Shown: positions 1 to 53,714 of the stretch, one piece after another | Layout: each line of letters begins with the position of its first letter | Position numbering within the stretch: the first letter of the stretch is position 1 | NCBI GenBank assembly: GCA_016699085.1 | Contig: CP064958.1 | Span: forward strand, 196,141 to 260,140 | Reading direction: 5' to 3' | Origin: Candidatus Nomurabacteria bacterium | Lineage (GTDB): Bacteria; Patescibacteriota; Minisyncoccia; Phycocordibacterales; UBA9973 | Length of the DNA stretch: 64,000 nt | Translations under genes and position numbers: made by a program | Notes under the pieces: model-generated | Database searches by the model: none | What the model saw: the letters and a program-made list of their open reading frames with translations, nothing else | Told to the model about the DNA's origin: nothing

Positions 1-346
1 CTCTATTTTCTATATCATTAGATTCTTCCCAATTTCCTTTGGCAATAAGAATATCTCCTTTTTCTAAAATTTCAATTTTTTTATTTATATACGTTGCAAT
101 ACCATAACGCTCCTCTAGTACATCACAAAATTCATAATTATGATTTTCTAGAGAATTTCTAATTTGCTCAAAAAGATCATATTTTACTTCCCGACCTGAA
201 ACCTGAACAAATGCTTGAGAATTTTGGTTCTGCTTATAAATTTCTTGAAAACAAAAGATATCTATCTCATTTTTTCTACTTTCGATAAAGTTCTTTAGTT
301 CAGGCCAGACTCTTCCACCCCATGCATTAAGTGTAATAAGTTTCAT
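1..346 (-). CDS. Endonuclease/exonuclease/phosphatase (EEP) family hydrolase, partial (N-terminal part only; continues off the window)
   Basis: Reverse-strand translation from the ATG at 344-346 gives MKLITLNAWGGRVWPELKNFIESRKNEIDIFCFQEIYK..., with the EEP-type N-terminus and D-x-x-CFQE motif. The ATG overlaps the ileS stop (ATGA). Not in the ORF track because it runs off the window edge. Confidence 0.5.
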   Translation of the reverse strand, partial: MKLITLNAWGGRVWPELKNFIESRKNEIDIFCFQEIYKQNQNSQAFVQVSGREVKYDLFEQIRNSLENHNYEFCDVLEERYGIATYINKKIEILEKGDILIAKGNWEESNDIENR

Positions 347-3300
347 CACTCTATGTTAATCGAAATAATAATTTCTCCAATACTTACTTCTTGTCCATTA
401 TTATCTGCAAACATGACTTCGCCTGCTAATACAGTCTTTTTGAAATCATTCATAAACGGCGTCACGAGTGATTCCGCCTCTGGAGAAATAGTAAGTATAA
501 TGACATCACTTGGTGTAAGACCAGCTTGTTTGCGCAAATCTTGTACTGCTCGGACAAATTCACGATACTCTCCTTCAAGTTTTAACTCCGGCGTAATGCG
601 CTCATCGAAAACAATCACTGGACCTTTCTCAACTGCTTTGACATTAAGCTCATCTTTGATAAGTTCTTTGTATTCATCCGCAAGATCTTCGGTGACGAAG
701 AAGAACGCGAGCGGCTGGCGCACGGGAATATTGGCTTTCTTTCTAAGTGCATTGCCAACCGTGCACAAATCCCGAACTATACCCATATTTTGCAAAATTA
801 CGGGATTAGGTTCTCCAGCTTTTTCTGGCCAATTAGAAAGATGTACACTTTCTACGTCTGCCTCATGTCGTAATCGTTGCCATATATCTTCCGAAGCAAA
901 TGGTGCAAATGGCGCCATCACTTGAGCGAGAGTTTTTAATACTGTATATAATGTTTGCTTCGCATCAACATCACCATCTTTGATGCGATCCCTCGAACGA
1001 CGCAAATACCATGTAGATAGGTCTCCAATAAAGTCTCGAATTGCCCGTACAGGCTCTAGTGCTTTGTATACATCCATCTTTTCTGTCGTAAGTCCCACAA
1101 CTTCATCAAGCCGAGCCAGTATCCATGCATCCAAAACATTTTTAGTCTGTTCACTATTTACTGTTCGCTGTTCACTTTCTGTATCTCTATACAATTCATA
1201 GAATGATAAAATATTGTACAGGAGCCCAAATACTTGCCGTTGGAGTTCCCCCACTGTTCGCTCATCGAAATTCTTGGATTCACCCGGCTGGTTGACTGAG
1301 TACATCCAAAGTCTCAGCGTATCCACACCGTATTTGTTAATCACAGTCCAAGGATCCACAACGTTCCCGATTGATTTCGACATTTTCTTGCCGTCTTTAT
1401 CGAGAATATGCCCGAGACAAATAACATTCTTGTATGCGGTGCCTCGATCCATAAGTACACCTACAGCGAGGAGTGTATAGAACCAACCGCGTGTCTGATC
1501 AATAGCTTCTGAAATAAAATCAGCTGGATAACCTGGACCTTCGACGAAGTCTTTATTCTCAAATGGATAATGATCCTGCGCGAATGGCATAGCACCTGAA
1601 TCAAACCAGACATCCATGACTTCTTTTACCCGGCGGAATTCCTTGCCCTCGTGTTCCAGTACGATTTCATCGATAAATGGCCGATGTGGATCAAGTTCAT
1701 AATTTTCATTGTGAGGAAGTGGTACAAACGGCAAGTCCCTCACCTCAGCATTGTCAAAACGTTTAAATTCTTGGACAAACACGTGAGAATTTGCCGGCTG
1801 GTATTCTTTATTTGTAGGAATAAATAACCCCGCATTCACAAAGAGTGCCCATGCTGGACCACCGTGCGTCACAATTAAAATATTTTTGTTTGTATAGGTT
1901 TTCTCTAAGTCATACAGTACCTTACCTGTACGTCTACCGACATCCTGGAGAGATTCACCACCCGGAATTTTTTCATCAAACCAGCTCTTTCCCTTTTGTA
2001 AAATATACTGGTGATATTCATCCCAGTTTTTGCCATCGAAATCTCCGCCGTCAATTTCGTGCAATTCATCGATATAAATAACCTGATTATTTGAAAGGCC
2101 GAGCTTTTCACGTAATATTTCTGCGGTTTCTTTCGTACGGATAAATGGCGAAGAAACAATGAGATCGATCCTTTTGTCTACTAAGCCTTGAGCCGTGGTT
2201 GCAACTTGCTTTTTACCTTCTACTGTTAAGTGATCATTTTCTTGATTTTTGAAGCTAATCACACCTTCAATATTACCTTCTGTGCCACCATGACGCATGA
2301 CAAAATATTGGTTTCCGGATTTCTTTGTATACTTTTTTAATGTTTCATACGAATCAACTACGAGACTCTCTCCATCGTCCGCAATCCAGATAGGCAGTGG
2401 TGTTCCCCAGTAACGCTCACGAGAAATCGCCCAATCTTTCACTTCACGGATCCACTCACCAAAGCGTCCTTCTTTAGTATGATCCGGCTCCCAATTAATC
2501 TTTTTATTTTCAGCAACCAGCGTATCTCGCAATTCTGACATGCGAATATACCAAGAATCGCGAGCATAGTAGATAAGCGCTGTTTTACATCGCCAACAAT
2601 GCGGATATGAGTGGGTATATTTTTCTTTCTTAAAAAGTAATCCTCGGTGTGCCAAATCTTTGATAACATCGACGGCCGTCTCTTCATCTTTCACAAATTT
2701 ACCCTCAAGAAAATCCGTACCTTTGATAAAATGCCCCGCTTCATCGACAAGGTGGAATTTTGGTAGTCCTACTTTCGTACCAAGCTCGAAGTCTTCTTGC
2801 CCGTACATAACTGCCGTATGCACAATACCCGTACCATCGGTCGTCGTCACAAAATCTGCAGGATACACTTTGTAGGCATTTACTATTTTTTCATCACCAG
2901 CATCAAGATTTTGAAGATATGGGTAGAGAGGTTCATATTGCATGCCAACCATTTCGCTACCCGTATGCTCTGCAACAATTTCATATGGCTCGGCAATAAC
3001 AGATAGACGTTCTTTTGCTAATACCAATATTTCATCTCCGACTTTTGCTTCTACATAGACCACATCTTTACCTACCGCCAAACCAACGTTGCCTGGCAAT
3101 GTCCACGGAGTCGTTGTCCATGCTAGAAAATACCCATTCTCTGTTCCGACAATTTTAAACTTTGCGGTGACTGAAAGATCTGTATCATCTTGATACCCTT
3201 GGGCAAGCTCGTGCGACGAAAGTGCTGTCCCACAGCGAGGACACCATGGTACGACTTTGTAATCTTTATAGAGCAAGCCTTTGTCATTTACTTTCGAAAC

Positions 3301-3828
3301 AATATTCCAAATTGATTCAATAAAATCACTCTTGTAGGTGATGTACGGATTCTTGTGATCTACCCAATACCCGGATCGATCAGTAAATCGTTCCCATTCA
3401 TCGATATACTTCCACACACTTTCACGGCATTTATCATTGAATGCGGCAATACCGTACGATTCGATTTCTTTTTTGGATTTAAGTCCCAATTCTTTTTCGA
3501 CTTGGAGCTCAACAGGCAATCCATGCGTATCCCAGCCACCTTTCCTGCGCACATGGAATCCCCGCATTGTTTTGTACCGTGGAAATGCATCTTTGAAACA
3601 CCGAGGTTCTAGATGGTGAATACCAGGCTTGCCATTGGCTGTCGGCGGACCATCATAGAAAACAAACTCACCTTTTGGAGAATCTTTATCGAGCGATTTT
3701 TGGAAAATAGTATTATCTTTCCAAAACTGCAAAACAGCTTCTTCCCTGCCCGCCGTAGCAGATTTTTCTGCACTGGAGGGACGAAGCGCTGCATCTGATT
3801 TATCCCCTTGTTCATTATCCTCTAACAT
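346..3828 (-). CDS. ileS: Isoleucyl-tRNA synthetase (type 2-like) with an inserted histidine-phosphatase (PGAM-like) domain
   Basis: HIGH-type motif PPTANGKPGIHH, CP1 editing motif TTPWTLPGN, YPHCWRCKTALIY, WAISRERYWGTPLPIW, DVWFDSG, KMSKS. About 175 extra residues (aa ~505-680) carry RHGGTEGN and VTHGGP motifs between the WG-PLPIW and DVWFDSG blocks. Confidence 0.9.
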   Translation of the reverse strand: MLEDNEQGDKSDAALRPSSAEKSATAGREEAVLQFWKDNTIFQKSLDKDSPKGEFVFYDGPPTANGKPGIHHLEPRCFKDAFPRYKTMRGFHVRRKGGWDTHGLPVELQVEKELGLKSKKEIESYGIAAFNDKCRESVWKYIDEWERFTDRSGYWVDHKNPYITYKSDFIESIWNIVSKVNDKGLLYKDYKVVPWCPRCGTALSSHELAQGYQDDTDLSVTAKFKIVGTENGYFLAWTTTPWTLPGNVGLAVGKDVVYVEAKVGDEILVLAKERLSVIAEPYEIVAEHTGSEMVGMQYEPLYPYLQNLDAGDEKIVNAYKVYPADFVTTTDGTGIVHTAVMYGQEDFELGTKVGLPKFHLVDEAGHFIKGTDFLEGKFVKDEETAVDVIKDLAHRGLLFKKEKYTHSYPHCWRCKTALIYYARDSWYIRMSELRDTLVAENKKINWEPDHTKEGRFGEWIREVKDWAISRERYWGTPLPIWIADDGESLVVDSYETLKKYTKKSGNQYFVMRHGGTEGNIEGVISFKNQENDHLTVEGKKQVATTAQGLVDKRIDLIVSSPFIRTKETAEILREKLGLSNNQVIYIDELHEIDGGDFDGKNWDEYHQYILQKGKSWFDEKIPGGESLQDVGRRTGKVLYDLEKTYTNKNILIVTHGGPAWALFVNAGLFIPTNKEYQPANSHVFVQEFKRFDNAEVRDLPFVPLPHNENYELDPHRPFIDEIVLEHEGKEFRRVKEVMDVWFDSGAMPFAQDHYPFENKDFVEGPGYPADFISEAIDQTRGWFYTLLAVGVLMDRGTAYKNVICLGHILDKDGKKMSKSIGNVVDPWTVINKYGVDTLRLWMYSVNQPGESKNFDERTVGELQRQVFGLLYNILSFYELYRDTESEQRTVNSEQTKNVLDAWILARLDEVVGLTTEKMDVYKALEPVRAIRDFIGDLSTWYLRRSRDRIKDGDVDAKQTLYTVLKTLAQVMAPFAPFASEDIWQRLRHEADVESVHLSNWPEKAGEPNPVILQNMGIVRDLCTVGNALRKKANIPVRQPLAFFFVTEDLADEYKELIKDELNVKAVEKGPVIVFDERITPELKLEGEYREFVRAVQDLRKQAGLTPSDVIILTISPEAESLVTPFMNDFKKTVLAGEVMFADNNGQEVSIGEIIISINIE

Positions 3829-4059
3829 ATTGACATTTTGTTAAAACTAATATAAAATATAAAAAATAATTAGAAATGGAAAACCAAATAATTATTCTAC
3901 TTTGGAGCATAATATGTATTTGTTACACAGGTATAGGATACCTTGTAACTCTTAAACTTATTATTTCTTCAAATCGCACTCCCGATCGCTTTACCAGATT
4001 CATAACAATTTTCCTATGGCCTTTTATGGGGCTACTAGCAATTGTTGCCCCAAAATCTA

Positions 4060-4300
4060 AGTAGAAAAACTCGTCCACGAATCACGAAAAAAAAATCATG
4101 ATTCAAGGACGAGTTTCTTTTTTATACAAGAAATCGTGGTACCACCTTAATTACTTCTCCTTTACCGCTATAACGGGCTTACCCGTCAGGTTCTACAGCC
4201 GTTCGGCTTTCTTCCTGAAGCTGTCCACCTAACGGAGGACTAAGGAATGATATGTCCTTAGTAGCTTGTAACTTCATCATAAGATACTTCAAATAAAAAG
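4060..4300 (-). promoter_or_regulatory. T-box riboswitch leader of ileS (specifier candidate AUC)
   Basis: Minus-sense sequence contains AATTAAGGTGGTACCACG, matching the T-box consensus AAUUAGGGUGGNACCGCG. An F-box-like CCCGUUAU lies upstream of it. A hairpin loop presents ACAUCAUU (AUC = Ile codon). A terminator hairpin (4064-4113) lies immediately 3' of the T-box sequence. About 250 nt of leader precede the ileS start. Confidence 0.65.
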
Positions 4301-4336
4301 CAAGAAAAAAACAAAACCCCGATAATTGGGGTTTAA
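4300..4336 (-). terminator. Rho-independent terminator after the membrane-protein gene
   Basis: Minus-sense CCCCAATTATCGGGG hairpin followed by TTTTGTTTTTTT. Confidence 0.55.
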
Positions 4337-4338
4337 CT

Positions 4339-4857
4339 TTAGAAAATATAGTTGTAATACTTCGAGGATTCATTCCTTAAATTCTCATACATTTTTGCAC
4401 ATTTGGGATCATTTCTGATCAGAGTGTATGCATACGTAGTTGGCTTGATATCGCTTATGCCAATGAACATGCCATCAATCTTGTTTTTCGTGCTCGAGTA
4501 CATATTGTGTTGACCGATCAAAATTAGGAGATCACTCCAGCGTGGATCTAGTTCGGGTTTCGAGTTTATATGTTGACTATCCACAAAGAAGATTTTCTCG
4601 CATAAATCTTCAATTTGCTCCTCTTTTCTATGGCGGATGCGAGATCTGCCAATCCTGTGATATATACATATCGCCAGGAGTACGGGCAAAACTATGACCA
4701 TAGTACCGATGGTTAGCGGGGTGTTGATAAAAATAACTAAAATATACAATTCCAGGATAGCCAGAGGAGAGACAATGAAAATTAATCCAACCAAATCTTT
4801 CTTCTCTGACCATGTCATAGGAAGAGAAGGGTATGTAAGAACGATTCGCGTTTCCAT
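4339..4857 (-). CDS. Membrane protein with conserved C-terminal soluble domain (paralog of 6195-6785)
   Basis: N-terminal hydrophobic helices. C-terminal block KPELDPRWSDLLILIGQHN...KIDG...LIRNDPKCAKM aligns with KPERHPEWEQLLFLIGSYN...KING...LIEHDPHCAQI of the 6195-6785 ORF. Confidence 0.5.
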   Translation of the reverse strand: METRIVLTYPSLPMTWSEKKDLVGLIFIVSPLAILELYILVIFINTPLTIGTMVIVLPVLLAICIYHRIGRSRIRHRKEEQIEDLCEKIFFVDSQHINSKPELDPRWSDLLILIGQHNMYSSTKNKIDGMFIGISDIKPTTYAYTLIRNDPKCAKMYENLRNESSKYYNYIF

Positions 4858-4948
4858 AAGCTTTATTTTCTTGCTTTATACCATATGCAAAACAAAATGT
4901 CTATAAATTCTTGAAAACCTATCCAAGGCAGTATGCTACAATATTTCC

Positions 4949-5191
4949 ATGGATCTCTCATCATTCGGACATACCATCCTTCTTACTATCACTAATATTC
5001 ACAATTTAACTATTGGCTTTTGGATTCTAGTTGCCTTAGTTGTCTTTATTTCTTTTATTTTGATCTCCAATTTCCGCTCATACGGTGAGAATTATTTAAT
5101 TGGATTTTTATTCTATACGTTCTACGGTTTTGGAGTATTTACCTTGCTTACTAATATTTACGGACAGCTCCAAATCATCGCTTCATTATGA
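4949..5191 (+). CDS. Small hydrophobic membrane protein
   Basis: 80-aa ORF with two hydrophobic helices, just upstream of the YdbT-like gene (its stop codon at 5189-5191 overlaps that gene's start at 5188 by 4 nt, ATGA). Confidence 0.35.
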   Translation: MDLSSFGHTILLTITNIHNLTIGFWILVALVVFISFILISNFRSYGENYLIGFLFYTFYGFGVFTLLTNIYGQLQIIASL

Positions 5192-5718
5192 CCTTACACC
5201 CAGGTGAAACTAAAATAGCAGTCTATCGCAGACACTGGTTCTATTTTGTCACTGAGACACTCCTCTTTGGATTGCTTGCTGTTTTCCCTCTTGTTGCAGG
5301 CACCATACTGCCGACCTATATACCATTTCAAATTCCCTCATATGTGTCAATTTTATTTCATTTTCTCTATACGCTCTGGCTTTTATTTGTTTGGATAACC
5401 TTTTTTATTTCCTACACCAATTATATTCTCGACCTTTGGATTCTGACTTCAGAGAGACTCGTCAATGTCGAGCAAATCGGCATATTCTCACGTGAGGTTT
5501 CAACTCTACAGATTGAGAAAGTTCAAGACATCACCGTTACAAGAAGTGGACTACTCGATGAGCTCTTAGGCACTGGCAGCCTTCTCGTCGAAAGCGCTGG
5601 TGCTGATAAAAAGTTTTTCATGTCGAAAATTGCTAATGCAGAACGCGTCAAAGAGCATATTCTCAAAATCGTCGAGGCAAAAACTCATGAAGTGAAGACC
5701 GTGCGAATCGAAAAGTAA
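5188..5718 (+). CDS. bPH_2 (YdbT/YdbS-like bacterial PH domain) membrane protein
   Basis: Multiple N-terminal TM helices, then VEQIGIFSREVSTLQIEKVQDITVTRSGLLDELLGTGSLLVESAGADKKFF, typical of the DUF304/bPH_2 fold. Confidence 0.5.
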   Translation: MTLHPGETKIAVYRRHWFYFVTETLLFGLLAVFPLVAGTILPTYIPFQIPSYVSILFHFLYTLWLLFVWITFFISYTNYILDLWILTSERLVNVEQIGIFSREVSTLQIEKVQDITVTRSGLLDELLGTGSLLVESAGADKKFFMSKIANAERVKEHILKIVEAKTHEVKTVRIEK

Positions 5719-6138
5719 TTACGCCGCTTTTTGTCGCCTTCCTTCTTCTCTTGCTTTCTTTTTTGCTAACTCTTCTCGCAGAAACCTGGGCATATCTTCC
5801 TCTTTCATTGTAAATATATTTTGTGCTTCGAAATCTGCAGTTGTTTTACAGTTCTCACAAAGCGAGACACCTGCCTTACCCCCAAAAGCAATATAAACGT
5901 CACGTGTTTTGGGATCAATACCAACAACTGGGCCATATTCTCGCATGGGCCAGCCTTGCTGCACATAGTCACCAGGCTTAAATGCAATACCTCCAAATGA
6001 CTCGGGATTAGTATCAAGCCAGATTTTATCTTGATTCCAATTACTCACAACAAACTCCTTGAGATGTGGGTTGTTTGGATGTTCCTGTAAAGGCTCCCCG
6101 ATATATTTGTTTTTCTCAGGAAAGTCATTTTCTATCAT
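5719..6138 (-). CDS. Hypothetical protein with basic C-terminal tail
   Basis: ORF 5719-6222, trimmed to the internal Met (MIENDF...) to avoid overlap with the upstream gene. Ends in ELAKKKAREEGRRQKAA. No recognisable family. Confidence 0.35.
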   Translation of the reverse strand: MIENDFPEKNKYIGEPLQEHPNNPHLKEFVVSNWNQDKIWLDTNPESFGGIAFKPGDYVQQGWPMREYGPVVGIDPKTRDVYIAFGGKAGVSLCENCKTTADFEAQNIFTMKEEDMPRFLREELAKKKAREEGRRQKAA

Positions 6139-6194
6139 AGGTGGATTGTAGCGCTTTCGTATAAAAAGAAAAGCCCAGAATGTCTGGGCTTTTA

Positions 6195-6785
6195 TTAGGT
6201 GAGATACGTATAGCAATCCCAATCGCCATTTTCTTTTACTTTAGAAATAATCTGCGCACAATGTGGATCGTGCTCTATCAGTGAACAGTGGTAACCCTTG
6301 GGTTTCTCAGCATGCTTGGCAAAGACAACAAGAATACCATTAATTTTCGCCTTATCTCCCACGAGCTGGTTGTATGAACCAATGAGAAATAGCAACTGTT
6401 CCCACTCTGGATGTCTTTCCGGTTTAGTTTTAACAGGATGATTGTTCATTAAAAATATTTGATCTTTCAATGCGTCAATCCGGCCCCTCTTTGTGCGTGC
6501 TTCATTAGCAATAAGGGAATTTTGAAGCGAAATTTTTGCAAGTACGCAAAGCGGAAACAATGCAATAATTCCTACAATGCCGCGAACGTCATTAAATTGA
6601 AAAAGTACTTTTAGATCAAAAGCAGCAATCAGCAATGAAACCACCATAAGTACAGAGTACATGCATTCACGAGATGTCATTGGAAGCTGATCATCATGTG
6701 CAACAAGTTGATTTTCCATAAAATGAATTTTTATTATTGTACCATATAATTTTTCACCTGTCGATGCAAAAGAAAAACCCACCAT
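6195..6785 (-). CDS. Membrane protein, paralog of 4339-4857
   Basis: TM segments plus a C-terminal domain alignable with the 4339-4857 product. Confidence 0.5.
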   Translation of the reverse strand: MVGFSFASTGEKLYGTIIKIHFMENQLVAHDDQLPMTSRECMYSVLMVVSLLIAAFDLKVLFQFNDVRGIVGIIALFPLCVLAKISLQNSLIANEARTKRGRIDALKDQIFLMNNHPVKTKPERHPEWEQLLFLIGSYNQLVGDKAKINGILVVFAKHAEKPKGYHCSLIEHDPHCAQIISKVKENGDWDCYTYLT

Positions 6786-6793
6786 TATGGGGG

Positions 6794-7150
6794 TTATTTT
6801 CTGTAAATAAATGCTTTAATACTGAGGTGTTTTAGTGCTTCACTGGGCCACTTTTTATAAATGAGTCCACATAACTCATCTACATTTTTCGATTTTGATT
6901 CATATAACACGTTACTCTCGTCAGTTAATATCTTTTCATATTTATCAAGGAATTTATTCAGTTCTTTATTGGCCTCTTCAAATGAGCCTGCTTGGGTCAC
7001 TTTCCATCGAGCCAATTCATAATCACTTTTTTCCTTGGTAGATTTTTTAATTTGCAAAATGAACATTACAAAGCCAGAAAAAACTGAATGTATTTTTTGC
7101 GTCATATTTTTCTTTTTACTATAGCATATATGACTACATTTGTCTAGCAA
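6794..7150 (-). CDS. Hypothetical protein
   Basis: 118-aa ORF, Lys/Glu-rich, no recognisable motif. Confidence 0.3.
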   Translation of the reverse strand: MLDKCSHICYSKKKNMTQKIHSVFSGFVMFILQIKKSTKEKSDYELARWKVTQAGSFEEANKELNKFLDKYEKILTDESNVLYESKSKNVDELCGLIYKKWPSEALKHLSIKAFIYRK

Positions 7151-7159
7151 TACTAAAGA

Positions 7160-8872
7160 CTACATTTTTTCTGGGACTTGTATGCCCAAGAGCCCTAGCC
7201 CATTTTTCATGACTATTGTAAAAGATTTTGTTAGAGCGATTTTGTATGGTGAATATTCATCAGTAGTATCGACAATCGGTGTTTCTGCATAAAAGCTATT
7301 AAACGCACTCGCAAGCTCTATCAGATACGTCGCTATGTGGTGTGGCGCATAACTCTCCCCTGCACGTACAACAATTTCAGGAAAACGATAGAGCAAGTGT
7401 TCGAGTAAACTAACTTGGCTTGGTGCTTGGCCTGCATCGATTGCAATCCCCTCTGCTTCAGCTTTCCGCAAAACTGACTTGGCGCGCGTCGCACTGTATT
7501 GAAGATAGGGTCCTGAATCACCCTCAAAAGAAATCGACTTGTCGAAATCATAGACTATATCGCCACCAATAGCCGAACGCAGAATCGCATATTTGATTGC
7601 CGCAACCGCCACTTGCGTGACGACTTCCTCGCGCTCAAATGCAGTAAATGCCCGCCCCTGAACACGCTCAAGGATCACCTGCATTGCTTCATTGAGTAAC
7701 GACTCACCGGTAACCACATTACCTTTACGTGAGGCCATTTTGCCTGATACGAGGCGCATCATGCCGTTGGTGATATGCATCGTTCTATCTGCCCACAATG
7801 GCTCAATTTGGCGCATAGCCTCTTTGACCACTTTCATATATTCACCTTGCTCAACAGCTGTCGTAACAATAGAGAGATCAGGGTTTTCATACGCAAATTT
7901 CTGCTTAGTCAAACCAAGCTCTTTGGTCTCATAGGTTGGTAGCCCTTGAGAGTTCACGAATACGCGTGTGTGAAGCGCTGGGTTATATTTCTCACCGTGA
8001 AAGACAACTGCTCCATCACTTTTCTCAAAAATTCCTTTCTCGAGATATTCATTCACTATCGCAAGACCGATCGGCGCCATCTCACTTTCAAAAAAAGAAT
8101 AATCAAACTTTGTTCCGAGTATTGTGTAGAGTGATTCAAATGCAGCAAGTGTTACACCTCTGCCCCAGTCATAAAGCTCGTTGATTTTGTCTTCACTTCG
8201 ATCGTAGATTTTTTTATTAATCGCATCTATTTCTTTTTTAGCTTCAACATCATTTTCGTATGCATCGTTACCTTTGGCATAGCATTCGCCGATATAGAGT
8301 GCTTGCGCCGATATAGCTTCGAGTTCAGCTGGCGTAGGATTTTTCATGAGACCATATATCGCTTTCGCTACGTGTGGTCCGACGTCACCTTGGTAGTTGG
8401 CACGGATTACTTTGGCACCGTGGTATTCGACAATTCGTGAAATGGATTCACCAATCGCATTCGTCATTAAATGTCCAATATGAAATGGCTTAAATGGGTT
8501 CGGTTGCGTATACTCAACCATGACTTTTTTCCCAGAAAGTATTTCGTTTTTACCATAGTTTTCATGTGCCTTGAGTATTGCCGCAACTTCATTTGTAAAA
8601 AATTCTCTACTCAAGTAGAAATTAATAAATCCAGGACCTGCAATTTCGATTTTCTCGATTTCTGGCAGTTTAGTTTTCTCAAGTTCAGTAAGTATAAGCT
8701 TGGCAACGTCTTGTGGAGATTTGCCGAGTGGTTTTGCAAGTGCGAGTGCAACATTGGTCGAGTAGTCACCATGAGCAAAATCCCCGGGGTGGTCGAGTTT
8801 TATCTCTGATTCGCCAAGGTCAAGAGCTGTGAGGGCGGATTGTATAAAGGTTTTAATAGTGTCAGCAACCAT
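7160..8872 (-). CDS. argS: Arginyl-tRNA synthetase
   Basis: Class I HIGH variant PNPFKPFHIGHLMTNAIGES and overall ArgRS architecture at 570 aa. Confidence 0.9.
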   Translation of the reverse strand: MVADTIKTFIQSALTALDLGESEIKLDHPGDFAHGDYSTNVALALAKPLGKSPQDVAKLILTELEKTKLPEIEKIEIAGPGFINFYLSREFFTNEVAAILKAHENYGKNEILSGKKVMVEYTQPNPFKPFHIGHLMTNAIGESISRIVEYHGAKVIRANYQGDVGPHVAKAIYGLMKNPTPAELEAISAQALYIGECYAKGNDAYENDVEAKKEIDAINKKIYDRSEDKINELYDWGRGVTLAAFESLYTILGTKFDYSFFESEMAPIGLAIVNEYLEKGIFEKSDGAVVFHGEKYNPALHTRVFVNSQGLPTYETKELGLTKQKFAYENPDLSIVTTAVEQGEYMKVVKEAMRQIEPLWADRTMHITNGMMRLVSGKMASRKGNVVTGESLLNEAMQVILERVQGRAFTAFEREEVVTQVAVAAIKYAILRSAIGGDIVYDFDKSISFEGDSGPYLQYSATRAKSVLRKAEAEGIAIDAGQAPSQVSLLEHLLYRFPEIVVRAGESYAPHHIATYLIELASAFNSFYAETPIVDTTDEYSPYKIALTKSFTIVMKNGLGLLGIQVPEKM

Positions 8873-8931: not shown

Positions 8932-10107
8932 TTATTTTTGTCGTAATACTTTATCGATCTTCCTCGCTATAGTTAGCATATCTTTTTCTTTTTTGCCTCT
9001 AGTTGTCTCAGCTGGAGTACCGAGTCGTATGCCTGAAGGATCCATCACACCACGAGGATCTTGAGGAATGGTATTCATGTTCACAATAATACCTGCACGT
9101 TCGAGGCGATTACTAGCGTCTTTACCTGAAACCCCCTCACCATTCATCCACGTATCCATGAGAATAAGATGTGAATCTGTTCCTCCTGAAATTATCCGCC
9201 AGCCGAGTTTTTGAAGTTCTTTAGCAAGTGCAGCCGCATTTTTAACAACTTGCTTGGCATACTTTTTATATTCAGGTGTCATGGCTTCTTTGAGTGCAAC
9301 TGCAACACCTGCAATATTATTCTCATGCGGACCACCCTGAAGACCTGGGATAATAACCTTATCGATTTTCTTATCAAATTCTCGCGCATCGCGCTTTACG
9401 AATATCATCGCCGAGCGCGGTCCACGAAGCGTCTTGTGTGTCGTCGTTGTGACAATATCTGCATATGGAAATGGTGATGGATATACCCGACCTGCTACGA
9501 GTCCTGCAAAGTGGGACATGTCGACCATAAGAAGTGCATCTGAAGCATCAGCAATCTCACGGAATTTCTTGAAATCAACGATTCGCGGATATGCAGTAAA
9601 ACCCGCAACGATAATATTTGGCTTTTCTGCGATAGCGATTTTCTTCAGTTCTCCGTAATTCAATAATTCAGTTTTCGGATCTACTTCATACGGCACCTGC
9701 TTCCAGAATTTACCTGTCATTGAGACACTCTGTCCGTGGGTCAAATGTCCACCGGAGGAGAGCTTCATACCCATGATCTTGCCACCTGGTGGTACAAGTG
9801 CAGCATAGACAGCAAAGTTTGCTGGTGATCCAGAAAGCGGTTGTACATTCACATGCCATTTTTCTGGTGTAAGTCCAAAAAGTTTGAGTGCTCGTTCGAT
9901 CGTCAAACTTTCAACTTGGTCAATAATACTATTGCCGCCATAGTAGCGTCGTCCTGGATACCCTTCAGCATACTTATTGGTAAGCTCTGAACCCAATGCT
10001 TCGAGCACATCTTTGGAGACATAGTTTTCTGAGGCAATCAAATTAATCACGCTTTTTTGGCGCTTTTTCTCCGCATCGATTAATTTTTTGATTTGAATGT
10101 CTTTCAT
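8932..10107 (-). CDS. glyA: Serine hydroxymethyltransferase
   Basis: LIASENYVS, TTTTHKTLRGPR, PLP-lysine context. 391 aa. Confidence 0.92.
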   Translation of the reverse strand: MKDIQIKKLIDAEKKRQKSVINLIASENYVSKDVLEALGSELTNKYAEGYPGRRYYGGNSIIDQVESLTIERALKLFGLTPEKWHVNVQPLSGSPANFAVYAALVPPGGKIMGMKLSSGGHLTHGQSVSMTGKFWKQVPYEVDPKTELLNYGELKKIAIAEKPNIIVAGFTAYPRIVDFKKFREIADASDALLMVDMSHFAGLVAGRVYPSPFPYADIVTTTTHKTLRGPRSAMIFVKRDAREFDKKIDKVIIPGLQGGPHENNIAGVAVALKEAMTPEYKKYAKQVVKNAAALAKELQKLGWRIISGGTDSHLILMDTWMNGEGVSGKDASNRLERAGIIVNMNTIPQDPRGVMDPSGIRLGTPAETTRGKKEKDMLTIARKIDKVLRQK

Positions 10108-10527
10108 TTATTTTCCAGTGCTCCCAAACCTGCCTTCACCTCGAACAGATTCAGAGAGTGCATCAGCTTCTTCCAATGTTGCAATCGTAACAGGGAAAAG
10201 TATAAGCTGAGCTATTTTATCTCCTATCTCTACGGTATATGCTTCCTTGCCTACATTCATAAGCTGGACGTTGTATTCGCCTCGATATCCAGCATCATAC
10301 ACTCCACCCATGGTGTGGAGACCTTTCTTGGCCATACCGCTTTTATCTTTAACGATGGCAGCATACCCTTCTGGAAACTCTAATGCAAATCCAACAAAAA
10401 ATATGTGCTGATCGCCTGGTAATAAAGTCATTGATTCCCGAGAATACATATCAAGACCAACATCTCCAGGATGACTATAGCTTGGTAACTTAGTATCCGA
10501 ATATAGTTTTTTTATTTTTAATAACAT
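10108..10527 (-). CDS. dut: dUTP pyrophosphatase (trimeric dUTPase)
   Basis: GDVGLDMYS, KSGMAKKG, GVYDAGYRGE and C-terminal RGEGRFGSTG motifs. Confidence 0.9.
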   Translation of the reverse strand: MLLKIKKLYSDTKLPSYSHPGDVGLDMYSRESMTLLPGDQHIFFVGFALEFPEGYAAIVKDKSGMAKKGLHTMGGVYDAGYRGEYNVQLMNVGKEAYTVEIGDKIAQLILFPVTIATLEEADALSESVRGEGRFGSTGK

Positions 10528-10565
10528 AGCTTAATCTTAACAAAAAAGTTGAAATAGTAAGATTT

Positions 10566-10595
10566 GACAAGTTATTTTTTAAAGTGTAAGGTGAA
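10566..10595 (+). promoter_or_regulatory. Candidate sigma70-like promoter for the thyX-like gene
   Basis: TTGACA, 17 nt spacer, TAAGGT, located upstream of the 10611 ATG in the divergent dut/thyX intergenic region. Confidence 0.25.
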
Positions 10596-10610
10596 GACAA
10601 ATTTAAAAAC

Positions 10611-12053
10611 ATGAATAACGAAACAAGTGACAATTCTTTTGTTGTAAATCTTGAAGCAAACGCACTTCACCGAAAAAATGCAATCGAGTTTGCAATAAAA
10701 CACATTTCAACTGATAAACGGATTATAGTTGTTGATGGTCTTGATCCTCAAGACAATGCAATGATTCAGGCAGTTTTATCTCGTGACCCAAAAAGTGTTC
10801 TCCCTCATCTAGAGAAACTCAAAAAGGAAGGTTCTGGAAAAATTATGGGACTCTTTTATGTAGGTTATGGCCATGGATCAATAGGTCAATGCGGACATAC
10901 AACAATCTTCTTTGAAAATGTCTCAATGCTGGTTGCGAAAGCTGTGCAAGATTCAATAATGTATATTGGGCAAGAATCAAGTACTCGTTATCTAAATATG
11001 TCATTGCAGGCAACAAAAAATCCCGCCGGAACAATCTTCGGAGAAAATCTGCAAAAAGAAAGCATGGATTTCTATGAACAAATTCTTGCTGATCTTATTC
11101 CAGAGCTTACTGCACGTTTCCCAATGCCTGAACATAACGAAACTGATGTAGACAAAATACAGAGAAAAGTAACAGACTACAAAAAGAGTATCAAAGCAAA
11201 AGCATTTGATATTGCGCGAGGTTTCTTGCCAGCTGGAGTAACTACATATGTTAGTTGGCATACTAGCCTTCAAAATGCTAAGAAGCAATTGGATTACTTA
11301 ACGCAACATCCTGTGGCTGAAGTATCTGTACTTGCAACACAAGCTATGCAAGCAATGAAAGAAGTGTACCCAGAAAGTTTTGGACACAAAGAACATCCAG
11401 AACAAACTGTCTATCTTGCTCATCTTGCTGGGAAATATGCTTATTGGGATTTAAAATATGATTCATTTTCTATTTTAAAGAATACGCTGAGCCCACATGA
11501 ATTATGTCAATATGAAGAATTAATGACGAAACGACCTGAGTACGCCGAATTACCTTCTTTCTTAAATGAATGCGGACAAATTCGTGCAACATTCCCACTT
11601 GATTTTGGATCATTCCGGGATATGCAGCGGCATAGACCATGGGTAAATAAAATGCCTTTGCTGCATACTGATTTCGGATTTTTTGAATGGTATTTGGAAC
11701 AGCTACCACAAGTACTTCGTAATAGAGCCGAAAAACATTTGGAGAAATTCGAAGCAAATCTCCAGGAAATAAAACTATCCCGAGAAGAGCTACAGAATTA
11801 CATACTTATGGGTTATACGGTGCAAACACAAACAACTGGCGGATTGCCACAATATGTGTATGTTTGCGAATTACGTACAAAGCAAACAGTACATCCAACT
11901 TTCAGAAAACCTGAACAACAAATGGCCACATACCTACAAGAGTGGTTTAAGGAAAACGTTGGATTTGATCTCCCATTATATGTAAACATGGATACGGATG
12001 AATTCAGTACGAAACGCGGAACACAGGATATTGTGAAGAAAGAAGTTATATAG
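10611..12053 (+). CDS. thyX: Flavin-dependent thymidylate synthase ThyX-like, tandem two-domain (pseudo-dimer) form
   Basis: N-half has GHGSIGQCGHTTIFFENVS and ESSTRY (matching the ThyX S-x-RY part) but lacks RHR. C-half has SFRDMQRHRPW (RHR present, serine part absent). 480 aa is about twice a canonical ThyX. Confidence 0.6.
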   Translation: MNNETSDNSFVVNLEANALHRKNAIEFAIKHISTDKRIIVVDGLDPQDNAMIQAVLSRDPKSVLPHLEKLKKEGSGKIMGLFYVGYGHGSIGQCGHTTIFFENVSMLVAKAVQDSIMYIGQESSTRYLNMSLQATKNPAGTIFGENLQKESMDFYEQILADLIPELTARFPMPEHNETDVDKIQRKVTDYKKSIKAKAFDIARGFLPAGVTTYVSWHTSLQNAKKQLDYLTQHPVAEVSVLATQAMQAMKEVYPESFGHKEHPEQTVYLAHLAGKYAYWDLKYDSFSILKNTLSPHELCQYEELMTKRPEYAELPSFLNECGQIRATFPLDFGSFRDMQRHRPWVNKMPLLHTDFGFFEWYLEQLPQVLRNRAEKHLEKFEANLQEIKLSREELQNYILMGYTVQTQTTGGLPQYVYVCELRTKQTVHPTFRKPEQQMATYLQEWFKENVGFDLPLYVNMDTDEFSTKRGTQDIVKKEVI

Positions 12054-45504: not shown

Positions 45505-45505
45505 A

Positions 45506-46318
45506 TTATATGCTTTTCAGTTGGTTAAAAGTGACACTACCAGAGAGATGTTTCTCTGCTTCAATAATAATTTTCTCCATCATTATTACCGCTTCGACTG
45601 GATACTTACCTTTTGCTGTTTCGTCCGAAAGCATAACTGCATCAGCACCCTCGAGTATGGCAGTAGCCACATCGGTCACTTCCGCCCGAGACGGTGTAAG
45701 GTTTTCTACCATAGAAAGAAGCATCTGGGTAGCGACGATGACAGGTTTGCCTGCTTTTCGTGCTTTTTTGATTATCCGATCTTGTATAAACGGTATCTGT
45801 TCGAGAGGCACCTCATTGCCGAGATCGCCACGGGCTATCATAACAGCATCAGCTTCGGCAATAATCTGTTCGAGTGACAGAAGTGCTATAGCTCTTTCTA
45901 TTTTTGCTATTACCATCTGCCTACCTCCAAAACCATGCACCAATCCTCTACATTTTTTTATATCCTCCGGACCAGCGACGAAAGAAACAGCTACGTAGTC
46001 AACAGCATGAAGAGCAGCAAATTTTATGAACTCCTCATCATTGCTCGTAATCGATGAGAGCGCTCGAGAGTCATACGTATGACTCTCATTTTCCTGGACC
46101 CGAGGACCAGGTAAGTCGATGATAATCGGAATTCGCCGACCACATTCTTTTTCGAGTTGTCGTATAAAAGTGATTTGTTCTGCCCATAAGGCGAGATCGC
46201 CCCAGGAAAAGTTAAGTCTCACCACATCTAGCTGGTGACTCACCATCGCCCTTAGGATGTCTGCTTTTTCTGACACCGGACCGAGTGTGACTACAATTTG
46301 TGCTTTGGAATTTGTCAT
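45506..46318 (-). CDS. pyk: Minimal pyruvate kinase (A-domain barrel only; B lid and C-terminal domains absent)
   Basis: KAQIVVTLGP, VRLNFSWG, MIARGDLG, ATQMLLSM, MLSDETAKGKYP. Only 270 aa. The B-domain position is filled by a short linker. Confidence 0.65.
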   Translation of the reverse strand: MTNSKAQIVVTLGPVSEKADILRAMVSHQLDVVRLNFSWGDLALWAEQITFIRQLEKECGRRIPIIIDLPGPRVQENESHTYDSRALSSITSNDEEFIKFAALHAVDYVAVSFVAGPEDIKKCRGLVHGFGGRQMVIAKIERAIALLSLEQIIAEADAVMIARGDLGNEVPLEQIPFIQDRIIKKARKAGKPVIVATQMLLSMVENLTPSRAEVTDVATAILEGADAVMLSDETAKGKYPVEAVIMMEKIIIEAEKHLSGSVTFNQLKSI

Positions 46319-46947
46319 GAGGGTACTTGTGATTCAGTCTGGCGAATCTCCTTGTGTATCATATGGCCAGTCTCGTCAATATCATAAATAAGAATCGAGC
46401 CAAAGGGTATCTCGATATCTGCTATATTCTCGTCGGAAATGTTCTCAATATATTTGACGAGCGTGCGAAGTGAATTACCATGCGCTACGACCAGTATATT
46501 TTTATTTTCCATAACTCGTGGCAAGATTTTTTCTAAAAAATAAGGGACCGCGCGATCATAGACCATCTTAAGCGATTCGCCATTGGGTATGGGATATTCC
46601 CAGCCTCGTCGGAGTTTCTTAAATTCTTCTTCGCCGAGAATCTTCTCCATTTCCCATTTATTCTTTCCTGTATAGTCACCATAATCGCGTTCATTCAAAG
46701 CGGCAGCGTGTTCCGTTGGTACTTTGTATCGCTTACATACATTGAGCATGCATGAAAGTGTCTCAATAGAACGTACGAGCATCGAAGCAAAGGCATAGTC
46801 GATCTCGATATCCTGTATGAGGGATCCCATATCTTCGGATTTATTGAATCCATATTGGTCCAAATGGCGATCACGCAAACCCGTCCATTTGCCGAGCTTG
46901 TTCCATTCTGATTCGTGATGTCGTACCAAGAGAAGTTTGCTTGTCAT
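46315..46947 (-). CDS. gpmA: 2,3-bisphosphoglycerate-dependent phosphoglycerate mutase (histidine phosphatase family)
   Basis: LLLVRHHESEWN (RHG-type variant) and VVAHGNSLR second-His motif. Confidence 0.8.
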   Translation of the reverse strand: MTSKLLLVRHHESEWNKLGKWTGLRDRHLDQYGFNKSEDMGSLIQDIEIDYAFASMLVRSIETLSCMLNVCKRYKVPTEHAAALNERDYGDYTGKNKWEMEKILGEEEFKKLRRGWEYPIPNGESLKMVYDRAVPYFLEKILPRVMENKNILVVAHGNSLRTLVKYIENISDENIADIEIPFGSILIYDIDETGHMIHKEIRQTESQVPS

Positions 46948-46950
46948 AGT

Positions 46951-50020: not shown

Positions 50021-50091
50021 CTGCACTTTTCAAATCTGAGCGCGAGTGAACCATTTCACTCGCTTATTCACCACTCGCCTTGCTCGTGGGT
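50021..50091. repeat. Repeat A copy 2, abutting and overlapping the last 4 nt of tRNA-His
   Basis: Same 71-bp sequence as 48013-48083. Its final GGGT is the tRNA-His 3' terminus. Confidence 0.85.
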
Positions 50092-50161
50092 GCCTATCGG
50101 GATTTGAACCCGAACTGAGAGTTCCACAAACTCTAGTGCTAACCATTACACTATAGGCACC
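50088..50161 (-). tRNA. tRNA-His (GTG) with encoded G-1
   Basis: Minus-sense GGTGCCTATAGTGTAATGGTTAGCACTAGAGTTTGTGGAACTCTCAGTTCGGGTTCAAATCCCGATAGGCACCC. Cloverleaf fits with anticodon loop TTGTGGA. Confidence 0.85.
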
Positions 50162-50275
50162 ATATTACTTGTTTGTAATTCTTAGTTTTTCTCCTTATCC
50201 AAAAACTACAAACTAGTCCCTGTTATAGCAAAATTTGCCTGAAAAATCTAGCTTTTTGAAATTACTACTACGTTC

Positions 50276-50833: not shown

Positions 50834-50834
50834 A

Positions 50835-52168: not shown

Positions 52169-52331
52169 ATTAATAGCTACCTGCTTCTACATTGGCAATA
52201 CTAACTTGAAGCGCAATTGCCTGAACATTACGAGTAAAAAATACGGCAAAGAGGATAAGCGCGATCCCCACGATGAGCAGTGTCCCACTACTAGCTTTTG
52301 ATTGAAATTGTTTCATATAAATACATGCTAA

Positions 52332-53087: not shown

Positions 53088-53133
53088 AATAACAATAGTA
53101 TATCAATTTTCTTATATTTTTAAGAGAATATTG

Positions 53134-53685: not shown

Positions 53686-53714
53686 AATGGGATTACCTTA
53701 CCATACTTACCTTT

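What the first reader, a model, noticed from the sequence alone, without database searches (positions are those of the whole stretch)
1789..2316. Histidine-phosphatase (PGAM-like) domain inserted inside isoleucyl-tRNA synthetase
In canonical IleRS the blocks WG-P-P-W and DVWFDSG are separated by roughly 60-100 residues. Here they are about 260 residues apart. The extra approx. 175 aa (aa ~505-680) contain the two signature motifs of the histidine phosphatase superfamily: F-V-M-R-H-G-G-T-E-G-N (catalytic RHG) near the start, and I-V-T-H-G-G-P (second His) about 140 residues later. The same window also encodes a separate conventional gpmA (RHH variant), so this is not a misassembled gpmA. It is an in-frame domain insertion in an essential synthetase. 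It could dephosphorylate a small molecule, a nucleotide, or the tRNA itself.
Basis: partly seen in the sequence, partly recalled or inferred. Interest (0 to 1): 0.65.

Follow-up and report, generated by a model that had tools for sequence, protein, structure and literature searches.

The report
Phosphatase domain nested inside isoleucyl-tRNA synthetase
The essential enzyme that loads isoleucine onto tRNA in this Patescibacteria genome carries a complete, apparently active phosphatase inside its catalytic core; related genomes encode the same phosphatase as a separate gene right next to the synthetase gene, so the two appear to work together in a way nobody has described.

Summary
ORF 346..3828 (-) is a 1160-aa type-2 IleRS with intact GIHH, KMSKS and editing motifs. 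A roughly 205-aa branch-1 histidine phosphatase (aa 502-709, Pfam E 9e-33) is nested in its variable CP3 subdomain.

It is not an assembly artefact. At least 74 species genomes and all 120 best database homologues have the same contiguous architecture. Catalytic R512, H513, N519, R564 and H655 are invariant, and E591 is kept in 74/75, while the insert averages 40% identity.

New evidence:
- In sister Patescibacteria the same phosphatase subfamily is a free gene in a tight argS-hp-ileS operon. ileS starts within 100 nt downstream in 47 of 55 cases.
- Some IleRS carry two to four intact copies, at three different sites.
- Between near-identical IleRS backbones (93-97% identity) the phosphatase cassette is often replaced by a version only 38-46% identical, with elevated or saturated synonymous divergence.

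The fold is closest to small-molecule phosphatases (PspA, GpgP, PhoE). The substrate is unknown. My best reading is a dedicated, IleRS-coupled phosphomonoesterase. No paper describing it was found.

The parts
346..3828 (-). ileS: type-2 (eukaryote-like) isoleucyl-tRNA synthetase, 1160 aa plus stop, with the nested phosphatase
   Evidence: ORF; TIGR00392, 878 bits against cutoff 621; 8c8w IleRS2 E 6e-235; 1ile E 3e-227; Foldseek TM 0.78-0.89 to IleRS structures
3613..3624 (-). Class I signature motif in its non-canonical form, GIHH (aa 69-72; the GXHH variant of HXGH)
   Evidence: position; PMC10485003 read (GXHH variant in IleRS2)
2599..3216 (-). CP1 editing domain (aa ~205-410), with WTTTPWT (237-243) and GTGIVH (332-337)
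   Evidence: editing-domain structures 1wk8/1wny match aa 211-410; the motifs are invariant in 65 homologues
2386..2439 (-). CP2-CP3 linker KDWAISRERYWGTPLPIW (aa 464-481). The yeast equivalent lines the tRNA CCA / reveromycin pocket.
   Evidence: PMC7955072 read
2326..2385 (-). Native N-terminal part of CP3 (aa 482-501: a strand plus the helix ETLKKYT). The Zn-knuckle cysteines kept in some homologues are lost here.
   Evidence: CP3 naming from PMC7191050
1702..2325 (-). Nested branch-1 histidine phosphatase domain (aa 502-709), including the conserved junctions KKSGN-YFVMRHG and FVPLPHN
2287..2295 (-). RHG motif (R512, H513 the predicted phospho-accepting nucleophile, G514)
   Evidence: 75/75 invariant; kept in every complete copy of the multi-copy variants, except that G514 is Ala in three of them
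2137..2139 (-). R564, the second phosphate-pocket arginine (SPFIRT motif)
   Evidence: 75/75
2056..2058 (-). E591, the predicted general acid/base
   Evidence: 74/75 E, 1 D
1864..1866 (-). H655, the second catalytic histidine (VTHGG)
   Evidence: 75/75
1729..2388 (-). Mosaic segment. Against the closest relative (P0082, locus L169), nucleotide identity drops from 0.85-0.92 to 0.32-0.73 and synonymous sites are saturated, while the flanks are 93-98% identical at protein level.
   Evidence: general pattern; second pair
1615..1701 (-). Return limb of CP3 (aa 710-738, YELDPHRPFIDEIVLEHEGKEFRRVKEVM). It is native to IleRS.
1594..1614 (-). DVWFDSG strand of the second Rossmann half
1525..1566 (-). 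Loop equivalent to 'site B', where some homologues (P0342, P0292) carry another phosphatase copy. It is empty here.
1372..1386 (-). KMSKS motif (aa 815-819)
1138..1191 (-). Loop equivalent to 'site C' (aa ~880-897), where P0342, P0288 and P0257 carry another phosphatase copy. It is empty here.
349..1131 (-). Anticodon-binding domain (aa 900-1040) and C-terminal DUF5915 domain (aa 1071-1160)
7160..8872 (-). argS, upstream on the same strand. In most relatives it directly precedes ileS, or precedes the free phosphatase gene.
   Evidence: synteny

Best explanation
The gene encodes the organism's working type-2 isoleucyl-tRNA synthetase. Its synthetic motifs (GIHH, KMSKS) and its CP1 editing domain are intact. 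A complete PhoE/PspA/CobC-like histidine phosphatase has been internalised into the structurally variable CP3 subdomain of the Rossmann fold.

The phosphatase is a dedicated partner of IleRS in Patescibacteria. In some lineages it is a free gene wedged between argS and ileS. In others, including this genome, it is nested in IleRS. In a few, two to four copies sit at up to three surface loops.

Inferred mechanism:
- IleRS charges and proofreads tRNA-Ile as usual.
- The tethered module hydrolyses a phosphomonoester through a phospho-His513 intermediate. R512, R564, N519 and H655 hold the phosphate, and E591 acts as general acid.
- The substrate is probably made, bound or encountered at IleRS. 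The most likely candidate is a small nucleotide-like phospho-compound, or a phosphorylated tRNA 3' end.

Shown here: the architecture, the conservation, the genetic linkage and the cassette exchange. Inferred only: catalysis, the substrate and the coupling to aminoacylation.
For: Identity of the two parts:
- Family and structure matches identify a type-2 IleRS and a branch-1 histidine phosphatase.

An active enzyme rather than a relic:
- R512, H513, N519, R564 and H655 are invariant in 75/75 species, and E591 in 74/75. The insert averages only 40% identity, against 56-62% for the IleRS catalytic and editing regions.
- These residues are also invariant in 65 database homologues.
- The catalytic Arg, His and Glu residues are intact in every complete copy of the multi-copy variants.

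A specific link to IleRS:
- Of the 150 closest cluster representatives of the insert, at least 90 are embedded in IleRS. The others are all 421 aa or shorter, so none sits in another large host protein such as ArgRS.
- Free members lie in a tight argS-hp-ileS operon, with 3-nt and 1-nt gaps in L085.
- In 47 of 55 free genes with enough sequence, ileS starts within 100 nt downstream. In 44 of 56, argS lies within 150 nt upstream.
- The free and nested forms replace each other. 10 of 13 nested metagenome loci and 48 of 60 GTDB loci have argS upstream with no free hp gene between (one search finds no free hp in the GTDB loci).
- The domain has been acquired at three sites, in tandem, and in up to four copies.

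Other points:
- The conserved junction motifs KKSGN.YF.MRHG and FVPLPHN suggest a fixed mounting on CP3.
- CP3 directly follows the linker that lines the tRNA CCA pocket (PMC7955072).
Against: - No experiment or coordinate-level model places the phosphatase active site near the synthetic site, the editing site or the tRNA. Model coordinates could not be inspected here.
- CP3 and the other two insertion loops are variable surface elements. They may simply be permissive sites.
- The synteny sample consists of the 80 best relatives of one ileS-adjacent query, so part of the conservation reflects shared descent.
- Two other free members examined had different neighbours: a ROK kinase in L087 and unknown genes in L088.
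Confidence: 0.55

Rival explanations
1. A housekeeping metabolic phosphatase, for example a metal-independent phosphoserine phosphatase or a PhoE-like broad-specificity enzyme. It is only co-expressed with IleRS, or hitch-hikes on it, in streamlined genomes. It has no mechanistic link to aminoacylation.
For: - The insertion points are variable surface loops.
- Some free relatives have unrelated neighbours.
- The window encodes glyA and a 2-hydroxyacid/PGDH-like dehydrogenase, so serine metabolism is present.
Against: - None of the 150 closest representatives of the insert sits in a large host protein other than IleRS; at least 90 are in IleRS.
- There are repeated internal insertions at three sites and up to four intact copies.
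- The free form abuts ileS in 47 of 55 cases across 39-62% sequence identity.
- No ArgRS fusion was seen, although argS is equally adjacent.
- The insert scores far below the PspA, CobC and dPGM family cutoffs.
Confidence: 0.25
2. A protein phosphatase acting in cis. It would remove inhibitory phosphorylation from IleRS itself, in the way HipA-type kinases silence class I synthetases at the KMSKS region, or from a neighbouring translation factor.
For: - The superfamily includes protein phosphatases (SixA, PGAM5, Sts), which are recovered as weaker structural matches.
- Tethering, the strict IleRS association and cassette turnover would fit a conflict with kinases. The HipA precedent comes from established knowledge and was not tested here.
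Against: - No kinase was seen in the conserved neighbourhood.
- No phosphosite evidence exists.
Confidence: 0.1
3. A ligand-sensing or purely structural module. It would bind a phospho-metabolite or replace the lost CP3 zinc knuckle, without catalysis that matters.
For: - The window protein has lost the CP3 zinc-knuckle cysteines that insert-free relatives and some insert-bearing relatives keep.
- CP3 topology varies between IleRSs (PMC7191050).
Against: - All catalytic residues are invariant across 75 species at 40% overall insert identity, and in every extra copy.
- Homologues that keep the zinc knuckle also carry the insert.
- The free form exists as a separate protein.
Confidence: 0.06
4. 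An assembly or binning artefact, or a decaying pseudogene.
For: Two relatives (L001, L002) have the gene broken into several ORFs.
Against: - The identical protein appears in two independent assemblies.
- 74 species genomes, and 120 of the 120 best database homologues, are contiguous full-length proteins with the same architecture.
- Base composition is similar inside and outside the insert: GC 0.389 against 0.427 (profile).
- The backbone shows strong purifying selection, with dN/dS 0.02-0.07.
Confidence: 0.01

Closest known systems
Type-2 (eukaryote-like, mupirocin-resistant) IleRS, e.g. Priestia megaterium IleRS2 (PDB 8c8w) and Thermus thermophilus IleRS (1ile)
   Same: - Same domain order: Rossmann fold, CP core, CP1 editing, CP2, CP3, anticodon-binding domain and a DUF5915-type C-terminus.
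- E 6e-235 and TM 0.78-0.89 to these structures.
- It carries the GXHH variant of the HIGH motif described for IleRS2.
   Different: - CP3 holds about 205 extra residues that form an independent phosphatase fold.
- The CP3 zinc knuckle is lost in the window protein.
PhoE / PspA / CobC / GpgP group of branch-1 histidine phosphatases (PF00300)
   Different: - It is nested inside another enzyme, or encoded next to ileS.
- It is below every curated subfamily cutoff: CobC 89.5 against 162.9, PspA 62 against 350, archaeal dPGM 63 against 225.
- Its substrate is unknown.
NCBIfam NF040702, 'isoleucine--tRNA ligase, N-acetyltransferase domain-containing'
   Same: An IleRS that carries an extra catalytic domain of an unrelated superfamily. 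It shows that IleRS tolerates such additions.
   Different: - The added fold is different (GNAT, not histidine phosphatase).
- The window protein scores 312 bits against a cutoff of 1999, so it is not a member.
- The position of the GNAT domain was not examined here.
Bifunctional RNase H / acid phosphatase (PRK07238, Rv2228c type), the MutT1 Nudix-histidine phosphatase fusion, and the TFIIIC tau55 histidine phosphatase domain
   Different: - Those are end-to-end fusions, not nested insertions.
- The partners are different.
- The score of 84-88 bits is far below the cutoff of 326.
CP1 editing domain of class Ia synthetases (works-like comparison only)
   Same: A hydrolytic domain nested in the Rossmann fold of IleRS that adds a second active site.
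   Different: - CP1 hydrolyses mis-acylated tRNA and is universal in IleRS, ValRS and LeuRS.
- The module here is a phosphomonoesterase fold, is restricted to Patescibacteria, and can also exist as a separate protein.

Membership tests
Isoleucyl-tRNA synthetase, type 2 (TIGR00392 / IleRS2 clade) | The whole-protein score reaches the curated ileS equivalog cutoff | tested here: met
   878.4 bits against a cutoff of 621.4
Isoleucyl-tRNA synthetase, type 2 (TIGR00392 / IleRS2 clade) | Class I signature motifs HXGH (or the IleRS2-specific G/AXHH) and KMSKS | tested here: met
   GIHH at aa 69-72 and KMSKS at aa 815-819. GXHH is accepted in IleRS2 according to PMC10485003.
Isoleucyl-tRNA synthetase, type 2 (TIGR00392 / IleRS2 clade) | CP1 editing domain with its conserved Thr-rich and His/Asp motifs | tested here: met
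   WTTTPWT at 237-243 and GTGIVH at 332-337, with D346 invariant. The region matches the editing-domain structures 1wk8 and 1wny.
Isoleucyl-tRNA synthetase, type 2 (TIGR00392 / IleRS2 clade) | Closest to IleRS2 and eukaryote-like structures rather than IleRS1 | tested here: met
   8c8w IleRS2 at E 6e-235 against 8c9f/1ffy IleRS1 at E 2e-98. Foldseek gives the same order.
Isoleucyl-tRNA synthetase, type 2 (TIGR00392 / IleRS2 clade) | Charges tRNA-Ile with isoleucine and edits valine | not testable with these tools
   Needs an enzyme assay
Histidine phosphatase superfamily, branch 1 (PF00300) | Score above Pfam's gathering threshold | tested here: met
   114-119 bits against 21.7
Histidine phosphatase superfamily, branch 1 (PF00300) | RHG nucleophile motif plus a second Arg, an acid Glu and a second His | tested here: met
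   R512, H513, R564, E591 and H655 are present, and invariant or nearly so in 75 species
Histidine phosphatase superfamily, branch 1 (PF00300) | The alpha/beta fold of the superfamily | tested here: met
Histidine phosphatase superfamily, branch 1 (PF00300) | Phosphatase or mutase activity through a phospho-histidine intermediate | not testable with these tools
   Needs an enzyme assay
2,3-BPG-dependent phosphoglycerate mutase (gpmA, TIGR01258) | Score reaches the pgm_1 cutoff | tested here: not met
   The insert gives no pgm_1 hit in the list. The best dPGM-type hit, NF038349, scores 63 bits against 225. The window's separate gpmA does pass, at 178 against 81.7.
Alpha-ribazole phosphatase CobC (TIGR03162) | Score reaches the equivalog cutoff | tested here: not met
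   89.5 bits against 162.9
Metal-independent phosphoserine phosphatase PspA (NF045917) | Score reaches the equivalog cutoff | tested here: not met
   62 bits against 350, although PspA is the best structural neighbour
Phosphohistidine phosphatase SixA (TIGR00249) | Score reaches the cutoff, and a minimal cap-less architecture | tested here: not met

The most novel reading that the evidence does not exclude
The phosphatase is a third catalytic site of IleRS. It would act on IleRS-bound tRNA-Ile (a phosphorylated or pyrophosphorylated 3' end) or on a phosphorylated IleRS-directed toxic ligand. Its frequent cassette replacement and copy-number expansion would then reflect an arms race with toxins or inhibitors aimed at isoleucine charging. 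That would be a built-in repair or immunity step in aminoacylation, unknown in any other synthetase.
Probability: 0.2. Interest if true: 0.9.

Novelty: new variant of a known kind. Interest (0 to 1): 0.68.

Why it matters
Aminoacyl-tRNA synthetases are among the best-studied enzymes, and their nested hydrolytic domains (the editing sites) define how translation keeps its fidelity.

Here a different hydrolase, a phosphomonoesterase, is genetically welded to IleRS across a large part of the Patescibacteria. It appears as a neighbouring gene, as a nested domain, or in several copies. The module is also exchanged between lineages far faster than its host enzyme evolves.

That pattern argues for an unrecognised biochemical step or vulnerability connected with isoleucine charging in these reduced, host-dependent bacteria. 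It gives a directly testable target: one recombinant protein, one point mutant and a substrate panel. The architecture is also currently annotated only as 'class I tRNA ligase family protein'.

Tried and rejected
- **Literature.** Six full-text searches (IleRS or aaRS with histidine phosphatase, PGAM, CPR, fusion) found no description. A 2026 preprint on IleRS domain evolution mentions no phosphatase and no CPR.
- **Structure library.** The afdb50 fold library was not available.
- **Model coordinates.** These are not returned, so the distance from H513 to the synthetic site, the editing site or the tRNA could not be measured.
- **Phosphoesterase-rich neighbourhood.** I tested whether downstream phosphoesterase genes form a conserved theme: Exo_endo_phos in the source genome, and HAD and HD in L002. 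Among 70 nested loci with downstream sequence, Exo_endo_phos followed ileS in 0, HD in 0 and HAD in 3. I rejected this as a conserved feature.
- **RNA elements.** Rfam finds only five tRNAs in the window, with no T-box or other leader near ileS.
- **Donor of the swapped cassette.** The nearest relative of the P0082 insert in everything fetched is only 53% identical, so no donor was identified. Only one pair has an insert much more similar than its backbone (L032 and L011, 77% against 51%).
- **Free phosphatase genes.** They evolve faster than ileS but did not show the clear two-mode pattern. The sample was small.
- **IleRS backbone tree.** A neighbour-joining tree interleaves the free-gene and nested lineages. 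Deep branches are short and have no support values, so the number of fusion events is left open.
- **Domain-copy tree.** The tree of phosphatase copies is star-like, with 22-35% identity between copies within one protein. It cannot separate duplication from independent capture.
- **Window ORF at the free-hp position.** The ORF at 6195-6785, right after argS, has no Pfam match and does not match the phosphatase profile.
Full report
**1. The observation**

The minus-strand ORF 346..3828 encodes 1160 aa without interruption.
- Pfam splits the class I catalytic domain (tRNA-synt_1) around a His_Phos_1 match at aa 509-664 (E 9.3e-33).
- NCBIfam names the whole protein ileS (TIGR00392, 878 bits, cutoff 621). 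The next best models are the type-2 mupirocin-resistance models MupA and MupB.
- The closest solved structures are type-2 IleRS: 8c8w at E 6e-235 and 1ile at E 3e-227. The alignment jumps from query 491 / chain 467 to query 710 / chain 484.
- WGTPLPIW (474-481) and DVWFDSG (739-745) are 258 residues apart. The gap is about 58 residues in an insert-free relative.
- By that alignment the insert proper is aa ~502-709, or nt ~1702-2325.
It lies at 46315..46947 (-), carries 'RHHES', passes TIGR01258, and sits next to enolase.

**2. Not an artefact**

- The identical protein is on an 808-kb NCBI contig annotated 'class I tRNA ligase family protein [Candidatus Nomurabacteria bacterium]', and on an independent 88.8-kb Logan contig.
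- All 120 best database homologues (60-84% identity, 1104-1348 aa) carry PF00300.
In the best 80 loci, 74 have a contiguous ORF of 1000-1290 aa with the phosphatase at about residue 500-700.
- Record titles name Nomura-, Zambryski-, Taylor-, Adler-, Magasanik- and Colwellbacteria, Paceibacteria and Minisyncoccia.
- GC content of the insert matches that of the flanks.

**3. Anatomy**

- Published IleRS structures call the segment between the 'RYWG' linker and the second Rossmann half CP3. It is residues 473-534 in Candida IleRS and 459-526 in yeast. Its topology differs between species, and it holds a zinc knuckle in Thermus (PMC7191050; PMC7955072).
- The insert sits between the two halves of that knuckle. 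Several homologues still have CxxC...CxC around the phosphatase. The window protein has lost the cysteines.
- The linker just upstream (window KDWAISRERYWG, aa 464-475) corresponds to the yeast segment that lines the tRNA CCA / reveromycin pocket.
- The synthetase parts are complete:
  - GIHH, the GXHH variant of HXGH that Brkic et al. link to mupirocin hyper-resistance in IleRS2.
  - KMSKS, the CP1 editing motifs, the anticodon-binding domain and the DUF5915 C-terminus.
- AlphaFold2 gives mean pLDDT 83 for the whole protein and 92-96 over the phosphatase. The model superposes on IleRS2 and Thermus IleRS at TM 0.78-0.89.

**4. Is the phosphatase alive?**

- Across 75 species the insert averages only 40% identity to the window, against 56-62% for the catalytic and editing parts. 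Yet R512, H513, G514, N519, S560, R564, R633 and H655 are invariant, and E591 is E in 74 and D in 1.
- The same holds in 65 database homologues.
- The insert modelled alone (pLDDT 89.5) is closest to capped small-molecule phosphatases:
- Protein phosphatases of the fold come lower: SixA 15.4, PGAM5 14.3, Sts-2 13.0.
- It reaches no curated subfamily cutoff. It is therefore 'PGAM-like' only at superfamily level.

**5. The same phosphatase as a free gene next to ileS**

- I searched 1.84 billion cluster representatives with the insert alone. Of the best 150, at least 90 are inside IleRS. The rest are 130-420 aa, and none is in another large host protein.
- Looking up free members gave an unexpected result. 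P0260 and P0271 lie between argS and ileS.
- In L085 the gaps are 3 nt and 1 nt. The ileS there is a 931-aa type-2 enzyme with an ordinary zinc-knuckle CP3, and it is 43% identical to the window's.
- A metagenome scan with an alignment of free members returned 80 loci at 39-62% identity. Of these, 62 are free and 18 nested.
  - Of 55 free genes with at least 300 nt downstream, 47 have ileS starting within 100 nt on the same strand, and 3 more within 1.4 kb.
  - 44 of 56 have argS within 150 nt upstream.
  - 10 of 13 nested loci have argS directly upstream with no free copy between.
- In the GTDB nested loci, argS is upstream on the same strand in 48 of 60, and no free copy lies in the flanks.
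- In the window, argS is at 7160..8872 (-), 3.3 kb upstream, with unannotatable small ORFs between it and ileS.
- Named free-form genomes are also Patescibacteria, for example Staskawiczbacteria.
- The free and nested forms are therefore alternative states of one association.
- Caveat: the loci are relatives of one query, so shared descent contributes to the count.

**6. More copies, more sites**

Some IleRS carry the domain in other arrangements:
- twice in tandem in CP3 (P0305, P0335);
- in CP3 plus the loop after DVWFDSG (P0292);
- in that loop plus the loop between the stem-contact fold and the anticodon-binding domain, with CP3 left short (P0342, with six cluster members on contigs up to 1.06 Mb; probably also P0288);
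- in CP3 plus the third site (P0257, P0291);
- four times (P0202, a fragment).

The catalytic Arg, His and Glu residues are intact in every complete copy; individual copies vary at G514, N519, E625 or R633. Copies within one protein are only 22-35% identical, so they are old. These variants form one clade in a rough IleRS tree.

**7. Cassette exchange**

- Comparing the window gene with its closest relative (P0082, locus L169) gave a sharp mosaic.
  - The backbone is 93-98% identical, with pS 0.33-0.54 and dN/dS 0.02-0.07.
  - Residues ~516-690 are 46-49% identical, with synonymous sites saturated (pS 0.79).
  - Nucleotide identity falls from about 0.9 to 0.32-0.73 between gene positions 1441 and 2100, which is window nt 1729-2388.
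- A second pair fetched for this purpose behaves the same way. For P0159 and P0096, the backbone is 97% identical with pS 0.32, and the insert is 44% identical with pS 0.59. The break falls directly after MRHG.
- Among 194 nested IleRS, pairs with at least 93% identical backbones have inserts that are either 78-100% or 38-46% identical.
- 7 of 17 backbone clusters hold two or three insert types.
- There are 88 insert types at 55% identity. The window's type ('RHGGTEGN') is the commonest.
- Saturated synonymous divergence points to replacement by recombination from diverged donors rather than local hypermutation. No donor was found in the data fetched.
- This exchange fits diversifying selection. 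It also fits easy recombination at the conserved junction motifs. I cannot separate the two.

**8. Interpretation**

- Shown: a working-looking IleRS; a working-looking phosphatase; a lineage-wide genetic bond between them, seen in adjacency, nesting, multiplication and mutual exclusivity; and modular turnover of the phosphatase.
- Inferred: the phosphatase acts on something connected with IleRS.
- The fold favours a small phospho-compound. Candidates that follow from IleRS chemistry are nucleotide products or by-products and the phosphorylated end of the flexible CCA tail. A cis protein-phosphatase role is less favoured by the structural ranking.
- A purely metabolic enzyme that merely rides on IleRS remains the main rival. 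It explains the fold matches. It does not explain the IleRS-only host range, the repeated internal insertions or the multiple copies.

**9. Novelty**

- The architecture is visible in public databases under generic names.
- I found no paper describing it, nor the argS-hp-ileS operon, the multi-copy forms or the cassette exchange.
- Synthetases with added domains are a known kind. NCBIfam even has an IleRS-with-GNAT model, which the window protein does not match.
- I therefore rate this a new variant of a known kind, with an open and testable function.

Noticed in passing
window 3613-3624 (-), aa 69-72: The class I HIGH motif is the swapped form GIHH (GXHH). Brkic et al. 2023 (PMC10485003) link this form to mupirocin hyper-resistance in type-2 IleRS. 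The insert-free IleRS of L085 has the canonical HYGH, so the motif variant and the phosphatase state are not tied to each other.
   Followed up: partly
window 44248-47925 (-): A lower-glycolysis cluster. It holds enolase (44248-45504), a short 270-aa pyruvate-kinase-like ORF (45506-46318), a 210-aa dPGM with RHH in place of RHG (46315-46947, passes TIGR01258), and a 2-hydroxyacid/PGDH-like dehydrogenase (46951-47925). The enolase, kinase-like and dehydrogenase labels are my reading of the translations; none was scanned against a family library. The kinase-like ORF is far shorter than normal pyruvate kinases.
   Followed up: partly
window 1-346 (-); full gene in L170:11483-12241: A 252-aa endonuclease/exonuclease/phosphatase-family gene starts on the last base of the ileS stop codon. 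Only its first 115 codons are in the window. It is not xthA by score, and this adjacency is not conserved (0 of 70 related loci).
   Followed up: yes
P0166 (aa ~1127-1334) and P0191; L002:7848-8528: Two IleRS homologues (1334 and 1348 aa) have an HD/HDIG-type domain fused to the C-terminus in place of the end of DUF5915. It is homologous to a free HD gene that lies two genes downstream of ileS in L002. These look like secondary fusions with a downstream neighbour.
   Followed up: partly
L083:6001-10260 (P0346/P0342 cluster); P0202; P0335; P0257; P0292: IleRS variants of 1379-1489 aa carry two phosphatase copies at other sites, and one fragment carries four. The clade also has about 75 extra residues in the C-terminal domain. 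The P0342 cluster is on contigs up to 1.06 Mb, next to genes such as DAHP synthase and adenylosuccinate synthase, which is unusual for very reduced Patescibacteria.
   Followed up: partly
L001:219-3563 and L002:3720-7242: In two close relatives the ileS gene is called as three or four separate ORFs (N-part, phosphatase, C-parts). These are probably frameshift errors in the assemblies, or decaying copies. This is why the first protein search returned 'free' phosphatase fragments 77% identical to the insert.
   Followed up: no
window 3829-7159: Between argS and ileS, where relatives have nothing or the free phosphatase, the window has five small ORFs. Only one has a Pfam match (bacterial PH domain, 5188-5718 +); the 80-aa ORF at 4949-5191 (+) was not scanned. 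The same block is present in the closest relative, L169.
   Followed up: partly
L078 (QYPD01000003.1): A contig binned as 'Spirochaetia bacterium' carries the Patescibacteria-type IleRS with the phosphatase. It is probably a mis-binned contig.
   Followed up: no
window 8932-12053: Upstream of argS lie glyA (SHMT), a dUTPase/dCTP-deaminase-like gene and, on the other strand, thyX. This thymidylate and one-carbon cluster is conserved with L169 and L170.
   Followed up: no
window 50088-62171 (-): Five tRNA genes (His-GTG, Leu-GAG, Val-TAC, Arg-TCT, Ser-TGA). No tRNA-Ile gene and no other Rfam family is present in the window.
   Followed up: no
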